From sequence record NC_079176: DNA of 51,940 bases; one strand, 5' to 3'. The notes beneath the pieces were generated by a model. The model ran no database searches and was not told the origin of the DNA. It saw only the letters and a program-made list of their open reading frames with translations. The position numbers and the translations under genes are program-made. This DNA is from Escherichia phage MLP1. Below are positions 5,284 through 37,984 of the stretch, one piece after another (within the stretch, counting starts at the first letter, position 1; each line of letters opens with the position of its first letter).

Positions 5284-6732
5284 ATGTCAATCCCAATTTC
5301 TGACTTAGTTCAGGTTGATATCGCAATCTCCCCGAACGCCATTGCGACTGATGGTTTTGGGCCGTTGCTCTTCCTGAGCAAAGAGTTTGTACCAACCGTT
5401 GATGTATATCCGGTTCGCTCGTATACCAGTTTGAAAGAAGTTCTCGCAGACTTCCCTGGTGGTGAGATTGCTAAAGCTGCTACCTCTTGGTACTCGCAGA
5501 AGCCAACTCCGAAGACTTTCCTGGTCGGTGCTATCAAGTATGATACTCTGACTCCAGCAACTCCTGCCACTGTTACTGCTGCAACTGCTGCTGTACTGGC
5601 AACGATTAAGCTGGAAACTGCTGCAACCTTGCAACTAAGTGCTAGCGGTGTTCAGTACGTTACTGACCCGATTGATTTCTCTTCTGCTGCCGACTTCGAC
5701 GAAGTTGCAAATTTGGTAACTACTGCACTGTCTTCTGTTGGCGCTGGTGTGACTGTTACTCAGGAAGCTGGTAAGTTTAAACTGACTACCTCTGCAACTG
5801 GCGCTAACGCAACTATCAGCAACGTTGGTGGTAAAGTTGGTGAAGTGTTGAAGCTGCAATCTTCTGACAGTGCAGTTATTGTTGCTGGTAAGAACGAGCT
5901 ATCTATCTCTTCCGACTTGTCTAATATTGCAGATGCTCCATTCAACTTCTTCTATGTAGGCCTTGACCGCCAGTATCGTGGCAAAACCTCTCCAGTAGAC
6001 AACCAAATGTCTGTGGCGAAGTGGTGTGAAGCATCTAGCAAAGTATTTGGCTGGGGTGATAACGACAAGAACATTCTTATCAACGGCACTGATAACAGCT
6101 TCCGTCGTGCTAAGAACCAGAACCTGCGTAACACTCTGTGTGTTTACGATGCTTCTGCGAATGGTGATGAATATCCGGAAATTTCTATCCTGGGTCGTGC
6201 ATCAACTGTCAACTTTAACGTTGCAAACTCTGTTCTTATTCTGGCATACAAGAAAGGTCCAGGTATCTCCACTGCTGACCTGTCTTCTGGTCAGGTAAGC
6301 GCACTGCTTTCTTGTGGTGGTAACGCATTCATTTCTGTTGCTGGCAACGTAATGTTCTACAACGGTCGTATGGCTGATGGCACATGGTTCGACTCCGTAC
6401 AGGGTGTTGAATGGCTGACTCAGAAAGTTCGACTGAACGTGTTCAACTTGTTCTACACCTCCAATACTAAGATTCCTTGGACGGACACTGGTGTAGCAAT
6501 GGTTAACCAGCAAGTAACCCTGGCGCTTGAACTCGCTAAGACTAACGGCCTCATTGCCCCTGGCTATGATAACGAAGGTGTCTTCTATCCAGAAGGCTAC
6601 AAAGTTATTTCTACTCCGTTAGAACTCTTGCAGTCGCAGAAGGGTGAACGTATTTGGGAAGGTACTTCCTTTATTGCTATCGGTTCCGGTGCAATCCAGG
6701 GTGCTGTAATCTCTGGCAACTTCATTCAGTAA
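5284..6732 (+). CDS. tail sheath protein (putative)
   Basis: 482-aa ORF followed by a 151-aa tube-sized ORF, a chaperone pair with frameshift and a tape-measure-like gene: the canonical contractile-tail order. Confidence 0.55.
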   Translation: MSIPISDLVQVDIAISPNAIATDGFGPLLFLSKEFVPTVDVYPVRSYTSLKEVLADFPGGEIAKAATSWYSQKPTPKTFLVGAIKYDTLTPATPATVTAATAAVLATIKLETAATLQLSASGVQYVTDPIDFSSAADFDEVANLVTTALSSVGAGVTVTQEAGKFKLTTSATGANATISNVGGKVGEVLKLQSSDSAVIVAGKNELSISSDLSNIADAPFNFFYVGLDRQYRGKTSPVDNQMSVAKWCEASSKVFGWGDNDKNILINGTDNSFRRAKNQNLRNTLCVYDASANGDEYPEISILGRASTVNFNVANSVLILAYKKGPGISTADLSSGQVSALLSCGGNAFISVAGNVMFYNGRMADGTWFDSVQGVEWLTQKVRLNVFNLFYTSNTKIPWTDTGVAMVNQQVTLALELAKTNGLIAPGYDNEGVFYPEGYKVISTPLELLQSQKGERIWEGTSFIAIGSGAIQGAVISGNFIQ

Positions 6733-13970: not shown

Positions 13971-14730
13971 CAACGATGTAAAGTCTGCAACTGTTAACAC
14001 AGGATACCCAGGCCATATTTACAACTTCGATGCTGTATCTCAAACATGTGAGGTACAGCTTGCAATCGAAAACCTATTCACAGGCTACACCAATGCCTAC
14101 ACCCTGGAGAAGAAGAAGCGGCTCAGGAATGTTCCCGTACAATTCATTCAGGGTGGTGGCTGGAGTTTAACGCATCCAGTCCCAGATGGTACTCCTTGCT
14201 ATGTTCATTTTGCCCAACGTGGAATCGAACATTGGCTGGCAGAGAATAAAGATTCTGCTGGCATGGTTGGTGGAAGACCTGCCCCAGCATTCAGTCAGTT
14301 GTTCTCTCACAACTCTGCTGTGTGCATTATCGGGACACAACCAATTCCAGGTGCAATACCAGGATTTAATGCAGGAGTTACTGAACTCCGAAATGCAAGT
14401 CGTGACCAGCGTCTGACCCTTCATGGTGACGGAAAGGTAGAACTTATCACTGGTGCTGCAAAGATTACAATCACGAAAGATTCGGAGATAGTAATTGAAG
14501 CGACAGAAAAAGCGTCTGTTATCTCGCCGCAAATCCTTTTGGATGGGGACACTACAGTTACCAAATCACTCACAGTCCTCGGTGGAATGTCAGTGTCAGG
14601 TGGTAGTGGTGGAACGATGGCAATCACAGGCGACATGGTTCAACAAGGTACGTTCACCATTAACGGAGTTACGGTTAACGAACACACCCACACTAACCCA
14701 GAGGGCGGCGATGTAGGGCCGATGAAATAA
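13939..14730 (+). CDS. baseplate central spike (P2 gpV / Mu gp45-like)
   Basis: C-terminal HTHTNPEGG motif resembling the metal-binding apex of spike proteins; position before gp25-like and J-like genes. Confidence 0.5.
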   Translation: MRVYLNVASHNNDVKSATVNTGYPGHIYNFDAVSQTCEVQLAIENLFTGYTNAYTLEKKKRLRNVPVQFIQGGGWSLTHPVPDGTPCYVHFAQRGIEHWLAENKDSAGMVGGRPAPAFSQLFSHNSAVCIIGTQPIPGAIPGFNAGVTELRNASRDQRLTLHGDGKVELITGAAKITITKDSEIVIEATEKASVISPQILLDGDTTVTKSLTVLGGMSVSGGSGGTMAITGDMVQQGTFTINGVTVNEHTHTNPEGGDVGPMK

Positions 14731-36426: not shown

Positions 36427-36443
36427 CATTAATTGGATGTGAA
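36427..36443 (+). promoter_or_regulatory. 17-bp motif copy CATTAaTTGGATGTGAA
   Basis: 78 bp upstream of ATG 36521. Confidence 0.4.
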
Positions 36444-36520: not shown

Positions 36521-36859
36521 ATGGCTAAGATTGTAACCGTAACTCAGTACGAAGCTAACGATGGTTCCCTGTTCCTGAGCGAAGCTGAGTGTAACGCACA
36601 CGATTTTAAACTGGAAAACGGCGCTAAAATTGATGCTGCTGTTGAAGCGTTCGCAAACACCAACAAACTGATTGACCGTTCTCGCTCAATGCAGACCAAT
36701 ACCGCTGCTGCATTCCTGGCATTCTATCTGCCGTGGGTTGAAGCCGGTTGTCCGGAAGTTGAACGTGTTGCGTTCGACACCGTGAAAGAAGTTAAGGTCG
36801 AAGAAGAAGCTGCTGTTGCAGTAGCAGAAGCTGCTGTTGAAGAAGCTCCGGTATTCTAA
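36521..36859 (+). CDS. abundant-looking small protein with acidic C-terminal tail ending in Phe
   Basis: Codon choice like highly expressed E. coli genes (CTG, CGT, GAA, ACC); C-terminus VEEEAAVAVAEAAVEEAPVF; motif plus AAGGT ribosome-binding site upstream. Confidence 0.5.
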   Translation: MAKIVTVTQYEANDGSLFLSEAECNAHDFKLENGAKIDAAVEAFANTNKLIDRSRSMQTNTAAAFLAFYLPWVEAGCPEVERVAFDTVKEVKVEEEAAVAVAEAAVEEAPVF

Positions 36860-37724
36860 ATCGATCTGGCGTGCACTGGAAGTTGTCCGGTGCTGCCTTG
36901 AACCCATTCCCAAGAGTGAGTGGGCTTCAATGAGCATTCTTGTGATTAGAGTTGGGAGGTAGGCCGATGCCCAATCTCGTGGCCCCGACAAGAGTGTTCA
37001 TTGAAGTAGTTTTCTGAGTCTTACGACGGGCCTAAACTGCCTGAAGTTATTGCGACTGTTTTATTCATTTAAAATAAATGCAAACGATTCTGAAATGCGA
37101 GTTGCAGCTTAATTAAATTTAAGTTCTCTCCGTGGTCTTCCAATCCCATGTAACCAAATTTGGCGCATTGTGGCTTCGAGATGTGATTAATAAATCGGAG
37201 CAATAATTAATTTGTATTCTGCGATGTAATGCAGACTTAAGTCCCTCAGTGCGCGTAGGGATGTGACAGAGTACAAACTTAATTATGCAGTTGGATATTT
37301 CCGGAGGACGGACGAGCACACTGGAATGTCTTCAATTGGTTTAGTGTGAGAAGCTATGCCAATGTGGAACGTAACTCCTTGAGGAAGTGCTCCTTTGGAT
37401 TTCCCTCCACACAGGAATCTCAAGCCTGTGGCAGCGACTTCGAAGCTGCACTGTATAACCTAATTCGCCCTAAAGTGAATTGCCCTGAGTATGGAAATAA
37501 ACTGCTCTAACCAATGGTTTCCACAACGGTGGAATAAATTAGGTTGCCTGTTGGTACTTGGGTTCAACACCTGCTTGCACTCGCAAAGTAGTGCCTCGTA
37601 CCTGAGATGAAGTGAGTCGGGACCATCAATCCACGGCAGGCCGAAGATACCAAACAGGCGGCTCACTGATTCTACAAGCCTCGCAGTTCGGGAAAACCTG
37701 CGTTACCAAAACCCACCAAATTTT

Positions 37725-37817
37725 GGACGAGTAGCTCAGAAGGTCTGCTCCAGAGCTTAGTCAGGTAGAGCAATCTGTTCGACAGATGTGTCGTTGGTTC
37801 GAACCCAACCTCGTCCA
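37725..37817 (+). tRNA. tRNA-like gene with insertion; isotype undetermined
   Basis: Perfect 7-bp acceptor pairing GGACGAG/CTCGTCC, canonical T-arm GTTGG-TTCGAAC-CCAAC, UA at positions 8-9, D-arm TAGCTCAG...GGTAGAGC split by about 22 nt; candidate anticodon stem ATCTG/CAGAT encloses only 5 nt. Confidence 0.45.
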
Positions 37818-37843: not shown

Positions 37844-37984
37844 ATGGATTTTGATGCACTTGATAACTTAGACTTCGGTGCTGCCGAAGAGGCAATTGAA
37901 GAACTTAAGAAGAAGCAGGACGAAGAAGCAATCGTTCCTGGTGCTGGTGATAACGACTGCTCAAGTGGTGCGTGTGCCATCTAA
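37844..37984 (+). CDS. small acidic peptide (46 aa), hypothetical
   Basis: GGAG 5 nt upstream of ATG; below ORF-track cutoff. Confidence 0.3.
   Translation: MDFDALDNLDFGAAEEAIEELKKKQDEEAIVPGAGDNDCSSGACAI

What the first reader, a model, noticed from the sequence alone, without database searches (positions are those of the whole stretch)
37725..37817. tRNA-like gene with intact acceptor and T arms but an insertion in the D region
The 7-bp acceptor pairing and the TTCGAAC T-loop are canonical, but the D-arm consensus is interrupted by about 22 nt and the best anticodon stem leaves a 5-nt loop. It may be an intron-containing tRNA, a pseudo-tRNA or a tRNA-mimic RNA. It sits between the early region and the spanin genes.
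Basis: seen in the sequence. Interest (0 to 1): 0.5.

Follow-up and report, generated by a model that had tools for sequence, protein, structure and literature searches.

The report
Conserved misshapen tRNA-like phage gene
This is the gene that databases call "tRNA-Arg" in phiEcoM-GJ1-like coliphages, and it is real and under selection, but it has a 22-24-base insertion in its D loop and a 5-base "anticodon" loop that varies freely between relatives, so it probably acts as a tRNA-shaped RNA rather than an ordinary decoder.

Summary
The element has a perfect 7-bp acceptor stem, a canonical T arm, a 4-bp D stem whose loop carries 22-24 extra bases, and a 5-bp anticodon stem closing a 5-nt loop.

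**Detection.** Rfam's tRNA model matches it end to end at 36.6 bits (gathering score 29). ARAGORN at default settings, and Rfam with its normal filters, find nothing.

**Identity.** The window is a Carltongylesvirus (Chaseviridae). The same gene is annotated in phiEcoM-GJ1 as "tRNA-Arg, may contain an intron".

**Conservation across 24 relatives.**
- The tRNA core is almost invariant: 3 of 65 sites vary, against 38 of 98 third-codon positions next door.
- The "anticodon" loop varies like neutral DNA: UUCGA, UCGAA, UUAGG and UAAGA.
- The insert exists as two haplotypes whose differences all preserve pairing or fall in loops.
- No allele without the insert was found, and no splicing enzyme is annotated.

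**Best reading (about 0.45).** It is a selectively maintained tRNA mimic that does not decode.

**Rivals.** A weak tRNA-Arg(UCG) decoder, a pseudogene, an intron-bearing tRNA, or a class II tRNA-Leu.

**Wider context.** Hairpin insertions at the same D-loop site, mostly paired with anticodon loops that are not 7 nt, recur in uncultivated phage contigs and are rare in cellular genomes.

The parts
37725..37817 (+). Whole tRNA-like gene, from G1 to discriminator A73. CC follows at 37818-19, so CCA is not fully encoded here.
   Evidence: Rfam RF00005 full-length match, 36.6 bits, E 8e-7. 100% identical in Yersinia phage PYps23T and coliphages TH23, TH28 and TH33; 89-99% identical in 33 further records.
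37725..37731 (+). Acceptor stem 5' strand, GGACGAG. It pairs with 37810-37816.
   Evidence: 7 of 7 Watson-Crick pairs. In GJ1 and Mangalitsa, C68 becomes U, keeping a G-U pair.
37734..37737 (+). D stem 5' strand, GCUC. It pairs with GAGC at 37768-37771.
   Evidence: Rfam alignment. Invariant in 10 haplotypes.
37744..37767 (+). Extra 24 nt in the D loop after the first GG (UCUGCUCCAGAGCUUAGUCAGGUA). It includes a possible mini-hairpin, GCU(37747-49)/AGC(37754-56), and a second D-arm-like copy, GCUUAGUCAGGUA.
   Evidence: Shown as *[24]* in the model alignment. There are two haplotypes, A and B, plus a 6-nt deletion in SA91KD. The U-A to A-U swap in the mini-hairpin is compensatory. In the alternative register the changes are G-C/G-U and U-G/C-G.
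37773..37787 (+). Anticodon-arm equivalent: a 5-bp stem AUCUG/CAGAU around the 5-nt loop UUCGA (37778-82).
   Evidence: The stem is invariant. The loop is UUCGA, UCGAA, UUAGG or UAAGA among relatives. 4 of 5 loop sites are polymorphic.
37788..37792 (+). Variable loop, GUGUC.
   Evidence: Invariant. This is the length of a class I tRNA variable loop.
37793..37809 (+). T arm: GUUGG-UUCGAAC-CCAAC.
   Evidence: Canonical in the model alignment. Only position 60 varies, C or U.
37810..37817 (+). Acceptor 3' strand CUCGUCC plus discriminator A.
   Evidence: The discriminator is A or G among relatives. CCA is encoded in some relatives (GJ1, ST32, FXie, TH26, PYps16N, Ecp_YSF, Mangalitsa) and not in others.
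37667..37711 (+). Highly conserved non-coding block 14 nt upstream. It contains the hairpin CGCAG(37682-86)...CUGCG(37698-702). It is probably associated with the tRNA-like gene (a leader, processing or control element) but is not part of the mature RNA.
   Evidence: 3 of 45 sites are polymorphic, against 8 of 13 in the spacer that follows. It is a single copy in the window. PYps3T, which lacks the tRNA-like gene, keeps it. About 81% identical blocks occur in the sister genus, and in Fifi44 the block is again followed by a tRNA-like mini-element.

Best explanation
The locus is a selectively maintained gene derived from a class I tRNA. Its body is related to tRNA-Arg and tRNA-Phe type sequences. 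It has been remodelled in two ways that are fixed in the whole genus: a 22-24-nt structured insertion in the D loop, and loss of two bases from the anticodon loop (5 nt instead of 7).

Proposed mechanism. The gene has no promoter of its own, so it is transcribed by the phage RNA polymerase as part of the long rightward transcript. Its intact acceptor stem, T arm and G18G19 let it fold into a tRNA-like L shape. Host RNase P would then cut at its 5' end, and 3' trimming plus the CCA-adding enzyme would finish the 3' end. This releases a stable RNA of about 95 nt and, as a side effect, cuts the early mRNA from the downstream orf46-spanin mRNA.

The loop that should carry the anticodon is too short and evolves freely, so the RNA most likely does not decode. 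It would act through its tRNA shape, as a mimic that occupies tRNA-binding proteins. Host tRNA-targeting defence nucleases or tRNA-processing and modification enzymes are the most plausible partners. The D-loop extension would be a specificity or protection element.

What is shown: the anatomy, the model match, purifying selection on the core, the lack of constraint on the loop, and the structure-preserving variation in the insert. What is inferred: expression, processing, non-decoding, and the identity of the partner.
For: 1. It is a tRNA by covariance model. The window scores 36.6 bits and relatives score 39-46 bits, all full length.
2. The core is under purifying selection. 3 of 65 core sites are polymorphic, against 38 of 98 third-codon positions in the two downstream ORFs (Fisher p = 2.6e-7). 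The immediately flanking spacers are hypervariable, 8 of 13 and 14 of 26.
3. The 5-nt loop has 4 of 5 polymorphic sites and four haplotypes. One (TH29) is the exact reverse complement of the commonest, that is, a hairpin-loop inversion. The loop differs from the core (p = 2e-4) but not from third-codon positions (p = 0.16). A real anticodon would be the most constrained part of the gene.
4. Read as anticodons, the variants would switch among Arg, Ser and Leu on an unchanged body.
5. The body lacks A20, the main E. coli ArgRS determinant. U follows both GG dinucleotides. The identity rules are taken from PMC9976931.
6. Every difference between insert haplotypes A and B is either in a loop or preserves pairing, so the insert looks structured rather than junk.
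7. No allele without the insert was found among the 38 phage records that hold the element at full length, the two related metagenome contigs or the IMG/VR copies.
8. Other tRNA-like genes with defective anticodon arms sit at the same locus. TH23, TH28 and TH33 carry a second one with a 6-nt loop. Erwinia phage Fifi44 has one at L030 5761-5830 (38 bits, 3-bp stem).
9. In IMG/VR, 42 of 52 other hits to a D-arm/T-arm pattern carry hairpin inserts at the same D-loop site. Of the 26 that have a perfect 5-bp stem, only 3 have a 7-nt anticodon loop. Several lie inside tRNA arrays that already hold a normal tRNA-Phe. The same pattern in about 10 times more cellular DNA gives mostly trivial 5' duplications with normal loops.
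10. The nearest phage-promoter-like motif is 1.3 kb upstream at 36428, and no terminator lies between it and the gene.
Against: - No expression, processing or binding data exist. Everything beyond anatomy and selection is inference.
- The first loop base is U and the last is a purine in all four loop variants, as expected for U33 and R37. If the closing G-C pair opens, the loop becomes GUNNNRC with a 4-bp stem, which could decode.
- The implied anticodons UCG, UAG and AAG read CGA, CUA and CUU, codons that are 1.5-2 times more frequent in this phage than in E. coli (the E. coli values are from memory).
- The element is dispensable. PYps3T, PYps4T and PYps16T lack it cleanly (PMC8762354).
- With only two insert haplotypes, the covariation evidence amounts to essentially one evolutionary event.
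- A large aptamer inserted into the D loop of E. coli tRNA-Tyr was not stably expressed (PMC5397188), so a D-loop insert may destabilise the RNA.
- Membership of the wider viral class rests on shared architecture, not on demonstrated homology.
Confidence: 0.45

Rival explanations
1. A functional, if odd, decoder: a phage tRNA-Arg(UCG). The closing G-C pair of the hairpin opens to give a 7-nt loop, G-U33-UCG-A37-C, on a 4-bp stem. The D-loop extension is tolerated. The tRNA supplements reading of CGA/CGG, and in lineages with altered loops, of CUA or CUU.
For: Public annotation as tRNA-Arg by tRNAscan-SE. U33 and a purine at 37 are kept in all four loop variants. After in-silico removal of 19-25 nt from the D loop, ARAGORN calls tRNA-Arg(tcg) at default settings with a score of 111.5. 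CGA is 7.3 per thousand codons here against about 3.5 in E. coli, and CUU and CUA are also enriched. The closest relatives of the body are Arg-type tRNAs: cyanophage S-RIM44 tRNA-Arg, and metagenome locus L026, whose loop can be read as CCG.
Against: The anticodon is not conserved, and it changes amino-acid family on an invariant body. There is no A20, the main ArgRS determinant in E. coli (PMC9976931). The AAG (Leu) variants have G73, although LeuRS needs A73. G32 and C38 can form a Watson-Crick pair, so the hairpin is thermodynamically closed. The D loop is 30 nt long. One variant is a simple loop inversion.
Confidence: 0.25
2. A decaying pseudogene or hitch-hiking relic with no function of its own. 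It is conserved only because the genus is young.
For: Two structural defects. It is dispensable in the PYps3T group. SA91KD carries a further 6-nt deletion. The region is a mosaic hotspot of gain and loss.
Against: The core is about 8 times less polymorphic than neighbouring third-codon positions, and far less so than its own flanking spacers. The few substitutions in stems keep pairing. The same two defects are fixed across all lineages, rather than different lesions accumulating in each.
Confidence: 0.1
3. An intron-containing tRNA. The D-loop insert is removed after transcription to give a tRNA of about 72 nt.
For: In GJ1 the insert is flanked by an exact GCUCAG direct repeat. Removing it restores a canonical D arm. 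Archaeal tRNAs can carry introns in the D loop (PMC3241643, listed; abstract only).
Against: No self-splicing intron this small is known in bacteria (own knowledge). E. coli has no tRNA-splicing endonuclease (own knowledge). No RNA ligase, polynucleotide kinase or RtcB is annotated in the Mangalitsa genome. No allele without the insert was found. Splicing would still leave a 5-nt anticodon loop.
Confidence: 0.07
4. A class II (long-variable-arm) tRNA-Leu(CAG). In this fold the second D-like copy, GCUYA-GUCAGGU-AGAGC, is the anticodon arm, and the AUCUG-loop-CAGAU hairpin is the variable arm.
For: ARAGORN at default settings calls GJ1 as tRNA-Leu(cag), 95 nt, score 110.4. The length is typical of class II tRNAs. 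A free variable-arm loop would explain the hypervariable 5 nt. The GUCAGGU loop is invariant.
Against: The D arm is nearly absent in this fold: 2 of 4 pairs in GJ1 and none in the commoner haplotype A, which ARAGORN does not call. There is an A-A mismatch at the base of the anticodon stem. Five nt separate the variable arm from the T arm, where class II tRNAs have 1-2. GJ1 has G73 rather than A73. The Rfam model prefers the class I fold. The deletion in SA91KD would remove the anticodon.
Confidence: 0.05
5. The tRNA-like domain partner of the tmRNA-like tag block 640 nt upstream (36990-37340), forming a split tmRNA-like system.
For: A tmRNA-tag-like reading frame, ANDSEMRVAA*, lies upstream with no convincing tRNA-like domain of its own. 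The 7-mer GGACGAG recurs at 37310.
Against: There is an A3-U70 pair, not the G3-U70 that alanylation needs (own knowledge). The element has its own complete acceptor stem. Predicted duplexes between the insert and the tag block are no better than shuffled controls. The PYps3T group keeps the tag block but lacks the tRNA-like gene.
Confidence: 0.03

Closest known systems
The 'tRNA-Arg' gene of Escherichia phage phiEcoM-GJ1 (NC_010106, 14456..14550, note 'may contain an intron') and its copies in ST32, SKA49, Ecp_YSF, Pel53, PYps23T and PYps16N
   Same: It is the same gene: same position, 89-100% identity, and the same insertion and short loop.
   Different: Public records disagree about it. Different records give 95 nt with an intron, 95 nt 'without an intron' (PMC6266442), 92 nt (PMC10282059), or a 71-nt tRNAscan-SE call that starts inside the insert and has a 4-of-7 acceptor stem. 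One paper says 'Arg or Leu' (PMC8762354). Mangalitsa is reported as having no tRNA at all (PMC6753284), and most records do not annotate the gene. None of these sources describes the D-loop location of the insert, the 5-nt loop or its variability.
Canonical phage-encoded tRNAs (T4, T5 and mycobacteriophages), including those proposed to evade anticodon nucleases through anticodon-loop changes (PMC10264068) or that differ from host tRNAs around the D loop (PMC12475279)
   Same: A tRNA gene in a virulent phage, co-transcribed with mRNAs and dependent on host processing. It deviates from host tRNAs in the D loop and the anticodon loop.
   Different: Those tRNAs keep a 7-nt loop, a fixed anticodon and a normal-sized D loop, and they decode. 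Here the loop is 5 nt and variable, and the D loop is about 30 nt.
mascRNA, the tRNA-like small RNA cut from the MALAT1 transcript by RNase P and RNase Z (own knowledge)
   Same: A tRNA-like cloverleaf with a shortened anticodon arm, embedded in a longer transcript. It is not thought to decode, and excising it processes the host transcript.
   Different: mascRNA is eukaryotic and unrelated in sequence. It has no D-loop insertion. Processing of the phage element has not been tested.
Archaeal tRNAs with non-canonical introns in the D loop (for example Aeropyrum pernix, PMC3241643)
   Same: A short insertion in the D arm or loop of an otherwise recognisable tRNA.
   Different: Those introns are removed at bulge-helix-bulge motifs by a splicing endonuclease and ligase, which E. 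coli and this phage lack. They also leave a normal anticodon loop.
Uncultivated-phage tRNA-like genes with D-loop hairpins, found here (IMG/VR loci L033-L084)
   Same: An insertion of 17-29 nt between A14G15 and G18G19 of a UAGCUCAG...GGUAGAGC D arm. Anticodon loops of 5, 6, 8 or 9 nt. Intact acceptor and T arms.
   Different: Their inserts are clear 6-9-bp hairpins with abundant covariation, whereas the insert here forms at most a 3-4-bp helix. Most of them have 8-nt loops rather than 5-nt loops. Homology with the Carltongylesvirus gene has not been shown. I found no paper describing this class.

Membership tests
tRNA (Rfam RF00005) | Covariance-model score at or above the gathering score (29 bits) over the whole model | tested here: met
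   36.6 bits, model positions 1-71, when 107 nt are searched. Relatives score 39.2-45.6 bits. With normal filters only a local 25.6-bit hit, or none, is reported.
tRNA (Rfam RF00005) | 7-bp acceptor stem, and a 5-bp T stem with a 7-nt UUCRANY loop | tested here: met
   GGACGAG/CUCGUCC and GUUGG-UUCGAAC-CCAAC. 100% paired in 10 haplotypes.
tRNA (Rfam RF00005) | D arm with a 3-4-bp stem and a loop of about 7-11 nt containing G18G19 | tested here: not met
   The stem (GCUC/GAGC) and the GG are present, but the loop is 30 nt, with a 24-nt insertion in the model alignment.
tRNA (Rfam RF00005) | Anticodon arm with a 5-bp stem and a 7-nt loop carrying U33 and a purine at 37 | tested here: not met
   A 5-bp stem with a 5-nt loop. 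The model alignment lacks 2 loop positions. A 7-nt loop is possible only by opening a G-C pair, which leaves a 4-bp stem.
tRNA (Rfam RF00005) | The anticodon is conserved among orthologues | tested here: not met
   Four loop haplotypes in near-identical bodies. 4 of 5 sites are polymorphic.
tRNA (Rfam RF00005) | Aminoacylated and used by the ribosome | not testable with these tools
   This needs acid-gel or periodate assays, tRNA sequencing or ribosome profiling.
tRNA-Arg as a substrate of E. coli ArgRS | A20 in the D loop plus C35 and U/G36 (PMC9976931) | tested here: not met
   C35 and G36 are present in the window's loop if it is read as UCG, but U, not A, follows both GG dinucleotides. C35 is lost in the Bp7, JL1, FXie, TH26 and PYps16N variants. 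The rule is quoted.
Intron-containing tRNA (bacterial group I intron in the anticodon loop, or archaeal bulge-helix-bulge intron) | The insertion is a self-splicing intron, or it lies in a bulge-helix-bulge motif with a cognate endonuclease and ligase; alleles without the intron are usually found | tested here: not met
   The insert is 22-24 nt and lies in the D loop. No intron family is hit in Rfam. No RNA ligase or endonuclease is annotated. No allele without the insert was found in the phage records, metagenome contigs or IMG/VR copies. Bulge-helix-bulge geometry was not specifically modelled.
Class II tRNA (Leu, Ser or Tyr type) | A long variable arm together with a D arm and a 5-bp, 7-nt anticodon arm; A73 for Leu | tested here: inconclusive
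   ARAGORN calls GJ1 as tRNA-Leu(cag) but finds only 2 D-stem pairs. In the window (haplotype A) there is no call at default settings, and at lowered thresholds only an 8-nt-loop 'tRNA-???'. The pairs of this fold cannot be separated from those of the class I fold by covariation.
tmRNA tRNA-like domain | A G3-U70 pair for alanylation, no anticodon arm, and connection to a tag-encoding domain | tested here: not met
   The pair is A3-U70, and the element has its own anticodon-type hairpin. tmRNA models give only an 11.9-bit partial hit.
Viral D-loop-hairpin tRNA-like genes (a provisional class defined here) | A structured insertion between R15 and G18 of an otherwise canonical D arm, together with an anticodon loop that is not 7 nt | tested here: inconclusive
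   The position and length of the insert and the abnormal loop match. However, the insert here has only weak helix potential, supported by one compensatory event, and common descent has not been shown.

The most novel reading that the evidence does not exclude
The element belongs to a previously undescribed, virus-enriched class of tRNA-derived RNAs. Members have an intact acceptor/T-arm elbow, an extra structured element inserted in the D loop, and an anticodon loop of non-canonical length (5, 6 or 8 nt). They would be kept by phages not as ordinary decoders but as tRNA mimics, for example decoys or inhibitors of host tRNA-targeting immunity or of tRNA-processing enzymes. The 8-nt-loop members might instead be specialised recoding tRNAs. 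In Cleopatravirinae this gene sits in a small cluster of such translation-mimic RNAs, together with a tmRNA-tag-like RNA.
Probability: 0.35. Interest if true: 0.75.

Novelty: new variant of a known kind. Interest (0 to 1): 0.5.

Why it matters
At face value this is the already-annotated single "tRNA-Arg" of phiEcoM-GJ1-like phages, so the locus itself is not new.

What is new is the evidence that the annotation is probably wrong in kind. The RNA's tRNA body is conserved while its anticodon loop varies as freely as neutral sites, and its two structural anomalies are fixed across the genus. This bears on the unresolved question of why phages carry tRNA genes. It adds a candidate third answer, tRNA mimicry without decoding, alongside codon supplementation and replacement of cleaved host tRNAs.

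The practical points are these:
- tRNA finders disagree on this gene. They return nothing, Arg, Leu, Ser, or a call that starts inside the insert. tRNA counts in this genus, which is used in phage-therapy candidates, are therefore unreliable.
- Natural variants are already available for experiments: the PYps3T deletion, the SA91KD 6-nt deletion, four loop types and two insert types.
- The same architecture recurs in dozens of uncultivated large phages, which suggests a general phenomenon worth a systematic survey.

Tried and rejected
- **ARAGORN with intron mode or lowered thresholds on the window.** It gave only forced folds, tRNA-Thr with a 7-nt 'intron' and tRNA-??? (ctta), with poor D and anticodon stems. 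I rejected these as structures.
- **Host origin.** No E. coli chromosomal tRNA resembles the body. The best matches are plasmid or phage-plasmid tRNA-Asn at about 76%. The stem/variable-loop/T-arm pattern has no hit in 185,579 species genomes.
- **More insert or loop haplotypes from metagenomes and IMG/VR.** I found only the same two insert types, so strong covariation statistics are not possible.
- **Out-of-genus orthologues through the spanin protein.** None turned up. The sister genus was reached only through the primase/helicase.
- **An own promoter or terminator.** No phage-promoter motif lies closer than 36428. No sigma-70-like site or intrinsic terminator is nearby.
- **The upstream 214 nt as a structured RNA.** The z-score is -1.1, which is not significant.
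- **The insert as an antisense or tethering element.** There is no complementarity of 10 nt or more anywhere in the window. Duplexes with the tmRNA-like block are no better than shuffled controls.
- **The T7 class II terminator motif ATCTGTT at 37773.** It occurs 9 times in the window and is not conserved in the loop variants, so I treat it as coincidence.
- **A complete tmRNA around the tag-like frame.** At 75-80% thresholds ARAGORN proposes tRNA-like domains at inconsistent places in different relatives, so no domain is accepted.
- **The original GJ1 paper.** It could not be retrieved.
- **A cultured-phage representative of the largest IMG/VR D-hairpin group.** No match in the phage collection.
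Full report
**1. What the window is.** The window is a nearly complete genome of a phiEcoM-GJ1-like myovirus (Chaseviridae, Cleopatravirinae, genus Carltongylesvirus). The 1-kb region around the finding is 98% identical to Yersinia phage PYps23T and 91-97% identical to about 40 coliphage records. In these phages all genes run rightward, and the phage encodes a T7-like RNA polymerase. The finding lies in a 985-nt stretch without a conserved ORF, between a gp29-like ORF (36521-36859) and a small conserved ORF (37844-37984) that precedes the spanin genes.

The sequence at 37725-37817 reads: GGACGAG-UA-GCUC-AGAAGG-[24 nt]-GAGC-A-AUCUG-UUCGA-CAGAU-GUGUC-GUUGG-UUCGAAC-CCAAC-CUCGUCC-A. That is a perfect 7-bp acceptor stem, a canonical T arm, a class I variable loop, and a D stem whose loop is about 30 nt instead of 8-10. 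The anticodon-type hairpin has only 5 loop bases.

Detection depends on the settings used.
- ARAGORN at default settings finds nothing in the window.
- Rfam at gathering threshold finds nothing over the whole window.
- With 501 nt or the whole window, Rfam reports only a local 25.6-bit hit to model positions 9-63.
- With only 107 nt, where the filters are laxer, the tRNA model aligns end to end at 36.6 bits, above the gathering score of 29, with E = 8e-7. It places a 24-nt insertion after G18G19 and leaves two anticodon-loop positions unfilled.
- Relatives score 39-46 bits full length.

**3. It is an already annotated gene, but the annotations conflict.**
- The GJ1 RefSeq record lists tRNA-Arg at 14456..14550, "may contain an intron".
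- The ST32 paper says 95 bp "without an intron" (PMC6266442).
- The SKA49 paper says 92 bp (PMC10282059).
- The Ecp_YSF and Pel53 records carry 71-nt tRNAscan-SE calls that begin inside the insert, so their "acceptor stem" pairs at only 4 of 7 positions.
- The Yersinia-phage paper speaks of "arginine or leucine" (PMC8762354).
- The Mangalitsa authors, using ARAGORN, report no tRNA and annotate a 40-codon ORF across the start of the gene (PMC6753284).
- ARAGORN calls GJ1 a 95-nt tRNA-Leu(cag) and SA91KD a tRNA-Ser(gct), using class II folds.

**4. Comparative anatomy.** I extracted the locus from 24 relatives. Variation inside the element is confined to a few places.
- The middle of the insert exists as two haplotypes: A (UCUGCUCCAGAGCUU, as in the window) and B (UUUGCAUU-GUGCUC, as in GJ1). 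SA91KD has a further 6-nt deletion.
- The 5-nt loop varies.
- Three core positions vary: T-loop position 60 (C or U), C68 to U (which keeps a G-U pair), and the discriminator (A or G).

In numbers:

| Region | Polymorphic sites |
|---|---|
| tRNA core | 3 of 65 |
| Third-codon positions, two downstream ORFs | 38 of 98 |
| Insert | 6 of 23 |
| 5-nt loop | 4 of 5 |
| Spacer immediately upstream | 8 of 13 |
| Spacer immediately downstream | 14 of 26 |

The core differs from third-codon positions with Fisher p = 2.6e-7. The tRNA body, including the anticodon stem, is therefore under strong purifying selection. The loop that should hold the anticodon behaves like unconstrained sequence.

The loop variants are UUCGA (most phages), UCGAA (TH29), UUAGG (Bp7, JL1) and UAAGA (FXie-2024a, TH26, PYps16N). 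The TH29 loop is exactly the reverse complement of UUCGA, which is a hairpin-loop inversion.

All differences between insert haplotypes A and B fall in loops or keep pairing. In the fold the model prefers, a mini-hairpin GCU/AGC becomes GCA/UGC, a compensatory U-A to A-U swap. In the alternative register the changes are G-C to G-U and U-G to C-G. This is only one evolutionary event, so it is suggestive and not proof.

No allele without the insert exists among the 38 phage records that hold the element at full length, the IMG/VR copies or the two related metagenome contigs. PYps3T, PYps4T and PYps16T lack the whole element cleanly.

**5. Which fold.** Three readings compete.
- **Class I fold with the first GCUC as the D stem and the extra bases in the D loop.** This is the Rfam reading.
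- **Class I fold with the second copy (GCUY) as the D stem and the extra bases between position 9 and the D stem.**
- **Class II fold**, in which the second D-like copy is the anticodon arm (CAG) and the AUCUG hairpin is a long variable arm. This is ARAGORN's reading for GJ1.

The class II fold would neatly explain the free loop. However, it has essentially no D stem, particularly in the commoner haplotype A, which ARAGORN does not call. It also has an A-A mismatch in the anticodon stem, and five bases lie between the variable arm and the T arm.

The sequence GCUCAGUCAGGUAGAGCA...GUGUC...GGUUCGAA is a textbook class I D arm, variable loop and T arm. The nearest relative of the body, metagenome locus L026, has a normal D arm with the identical anticodon stem, variable loop and T arm. 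I therefore take the gene to be derived from a class I tRNA. Compared with L026, whose loop can be read CU...CCGAU, the phage loop looks like U33-N34-N35-N36-R37 with positions 32 and 38 missing.

**6. Is it a decoder?**

In favour:
- U at the first loop position and a purine at the last are kept in all variants.
- If the closing G-C pair opens, the anticodons would be UCG, CGA, UAG and AAG. Three of these read codons (CGA, CUA, CUU) that are 1.5-2 times more frequent in this phage than in E. coli (host values from memory).
- After in-silico removal of 19-25 nt from the D loop, ARAGORN calls tRNA-Arg(tcg).

Against:
- The anticodon is the least conserved part of the gene, and it crosses amino-acid families on an unchanged body.
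- E. coli ArgRS depends mainly on A20 (PMC9976931), but U follows both GG dinucleotides.
- The AAG variants have G73, although leucine identity needs A73.
- G32 and C38 can form a Watson-Crick pair, and folding predicts a closed hairpin.
- A large aptamer inserted between C16 and G18 of E. coli tRNA-Tyr was not stably expressed, whereas insertions in the variable loop were tolerated (PMC5397188).

On balance, canonical decoding is less likely than not.

**7. Is the insert an intron?** The insert is 22-24 nt and lies in the D loop. No intron family matches it. No RNA ligase, kinase-phosphatase, RtcB or splicing endonuclease is annotated in the carefully annotated Mangalitsa genome. No allele without the insert was found. 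Splicing would not repair the short loop. I rate this reading as unlikely.

**8. Context that changed my view.**

*The locus is a hotspot for aberrant tRNA-like genes.*
- TH23, TH28 and TH33 carry a second 70-nt tRNA-like gene immediately downstream, with a 6-nt anticodon loop and a 3-nt variable loop.
- In the sister genus Loessnervirus, Erwinia phage Fifi44 has an unannotated tRNA-model hit of 38 bits with a 3-bp anticodon stem and the same GUUGG/CCAAC T stem (L030 5761-5830). It also has a tRNA-like mini-element directly after the homologue of the conserved 45-nt upstream block.

*D-loop hairpin insertions recur in uncultivated phages.* I scanned IMG/VR for UAGCUCAG-N12-40-GGUAGAGC-N24-40-GGUUCGAA and obtained 57 loci, 5 of them Carltongylesvirus.
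- Of the other 52, 42 carry a hairpin-forming insert at the same D-loop site.
- Of the 26 hairpin-bearing hits that have a perfect 5-bp anticodon stem, only 3 have a 7-nt loop, and 18 have 8-nt loops.
- The largest group has 14 distinct inserts in which 83 of 84 helix cells are paired, including A-U to G-C swaps.
- Several of these genes lie inside tRNA arrays that already contain a normal tRNA-Phe.

*The same pattern is mostly trivial in cellular genomes.* In about 596 Gb of bacterial and archaeal genomes it gives 63 matches. Of these, 48 are partial duplications of a tRNA's 5' end in front of a normal tRNA. The few true D-loop inserts are mostly archaeal or from candidate-phyla bacteria, and they have normal loops.

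The combination of a D-loop insertion with an anticodon loop that is not 7 nt therefore looks like a virus-associated theme, and I found no paper describing it. Whether the Carltongylesvirus gene is homologous to these genes or merely analogous is open. Its insert is a much weaker helix.

**9. Most likely mechanism.** The gene has no promoter of its own. The nearest phage-promoter-like motif (ATTAGTTGGA type) is at 36428, and no terminator intervenes. It would therefore be transcribed within the long phage transcript and released by host RNase P and 3' processing enzymes, which need only the acceptor/T-arm minihelix and the elbow. Those are exactly the parts under selection.

I propose that the product is a stable tRNA-shaped RNA of about 95 nt that does not decode and acts by occupying tRNA-binding proteins. 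Cutting the transcript between the early genes and the orf46-spanin genes would be a by-product. The most attractive partners are tRNA-targeting defence nucleases. This fits recent reports that phage tRNAs differ from host tRNAs in the anticodon loop and D loop (PMC10264068; PMC12475279). That step is pure inference.

Confidence that it is a functional non-decoding tRNA-like RNA is about 0.45. The alternatives are a weak decoder (0.25), a relic (0.10), a spliced tRNA (0.07), a class II tRNA-Leu (0.05) and a tmRNA partner (0.03).

**10. Novelty and score.** The locus itself is already in public records as a tRNA-Arg, and in that sense the finding is known. The architecture, its conservation pattern and the free "anticodon" have not been described in the papers I could search. 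The gene fails two defining features of a working tRNA while passing the family model. I therefore class it as a new variant of a known kind.

Interest is moderate at 0.5. A tRNA or phage specialist would be surprised by a conserved tRNA body with a drifting 5-nt anticodon loop, and by the recurrence of D-loop inserts in phages. No function has been shown, and the element is dispensable.

Noticed in passing
window 36990-37340 (+); tag-like frame 37080-37112: An unannotated non-coding block, conserved across the genus, resembles the mRNA-like domain of a tmRNA. It contains UUCUGAGUCUUACGACGGG, then AAAAUAAAU followed by GCA AAC GAU UCU GAA AUG CGA GUU GCA GCU UAA, which reads ANDSEMRVAA*. Relatives carry synonymous changes in this frame; Fifi44 has the same tag and SSEM1 has ANDNEMRAAA. 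Rfam tmRNA models hit only below threshold (22.5 and 16.1 bits). ARAGORN calls a permuted tmRNA only at 80% threshold, with tRNA-like domains placed inconsistently between relatives. The sub-segment 37134-37202 has 70-80% matches in unannotated DNA of very different phages (Klebsiella Magnus, Aeromonas pIS4-A, Vibrio pYD38-A, Salmonella and Acinetobacter phages)..
   Followed up: partly
IMG/VR loci L033-L084 (for example L064, L035, L039, L043, L046, L050, L070): About 42 tRNA-like genes of uncultivated, mostly large phages carry a 17-29-nt hairpin inserted between A14G15 and G18G19 of a canonical D arm. Most also have anticodon loops of 8, 6, 5 or 9 nt, for example AACGAAAG. Several lie inside tRNA arrays. 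The hairpins show compensatory changes. ARAGORN mis-reads many of them as 92-nt tRNA-Pro or tRNA-Thr. The same pattern in cellular genomes mostly returns trivial 5' partial duplications..
   Followed up: partly
L025 (Escherichia virus TH23, MT446397) 701-770; also TH28 and TH33: A second tRNA-like gene of about 70 nt is inserted directly after the first. It has a perfect acceptor stem (UGCCAAU/AUUGGCA), D arm and T arm, but a 6-nt anticodon loop and a 3-nt variable loop. It is found only in these three records..
   Followed up: partly
L030 (Erwinia phage Fifi44, NC_079174) 5761-5830 and about 5411-5470; L031 (Pantoea phage SSEM1) 3800-3866, 4037-4105 and about 5415-5455: The sister genus has several unannotated, aberrant tRNA-like or tmRNA-like pieces at the syntenic place. 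These include a 38-bit tRNA-model hit with a 3-bp anticodon stem, mini-elements with only an acceptor stem, one hairpin and a T arm, and a fragment resembling a tmRNA 3' end (GCUGGCAAGCGAA...CCAGCCGACUCCACCA)..
   Followed up: partly
window 37667-37711 (+): A 45-nt non-coding block (UGAUUCUACAAGCCUCGCAGUUCGGGAAAACCUGCGUUACCAAAA) is the most conserved stretch of the region. It has a CGCAG/CUGCG hairpin whose loop differs between genera. PYps3T keeps it although it lacks the tRNA-like gene. It is a single copy in the window and its function is unknown..
   Followed up: partly
L026 (metagenome contig Ga0209668_10107209) 1321-1408: A tRNA (48.8 bits) has a D-arm 3' half, anticodon stem, variable loop and T arm identical to the phage element. 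Its D arm is normal, but 22 nt lie between the anticodon-stem strands (CU AGGAUUUGAAAAGAU CCGAU). This could be a 15-nt insertion in a CCG (Arg) loop. The flanks are AT-rich and carry a repeated TTATATTTACT motif..
   Followed up: no
L015 (Escherichia virus TH29) loop of the tRNA-like gene; equivalent to window 37778-37782: The loop UCGAA is the exact reverse complement of the common UUCGA between inverted-repeat stems. This is a small hairpin-loop inversion, presumably from template switching, or possibly an assembly artefact in an UNVERIFIED record..
   Followed up: no
window 37844-37984 (+): The 46-codon ORF just downstream encodes an acidic peptide ending ...CSSGACAI. It is clearly a real gene: 22 of 46 third positions are polymorphic, against 3 of 46 first positions and 1 of 46 second positions. 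It is annotated only as hypothetical..
   Followed up: no
window 37346-37666 (+): The stretch between the tmRNA-like block and the conserved 45-nt block is mosaic among relatives. It holds an Imm-like ORF in Mangalitsa, gp30 in GJ1 and an HNH endonuclease nearby in Pel53. About 70% of sites are polymorphic at all three codon positions of the local 54-codon ORF, so that ORF is probably not conserved coding sequence..
   Followed up: no
PP952070 'Staphylococcus phage Pel53' (L003): A record labelled as a Staphylococcus hyicus phage is 93-99% identical to these coliphages across the region. The host label may be wrong, or the sample may have been contaminated..
   Followed up: no
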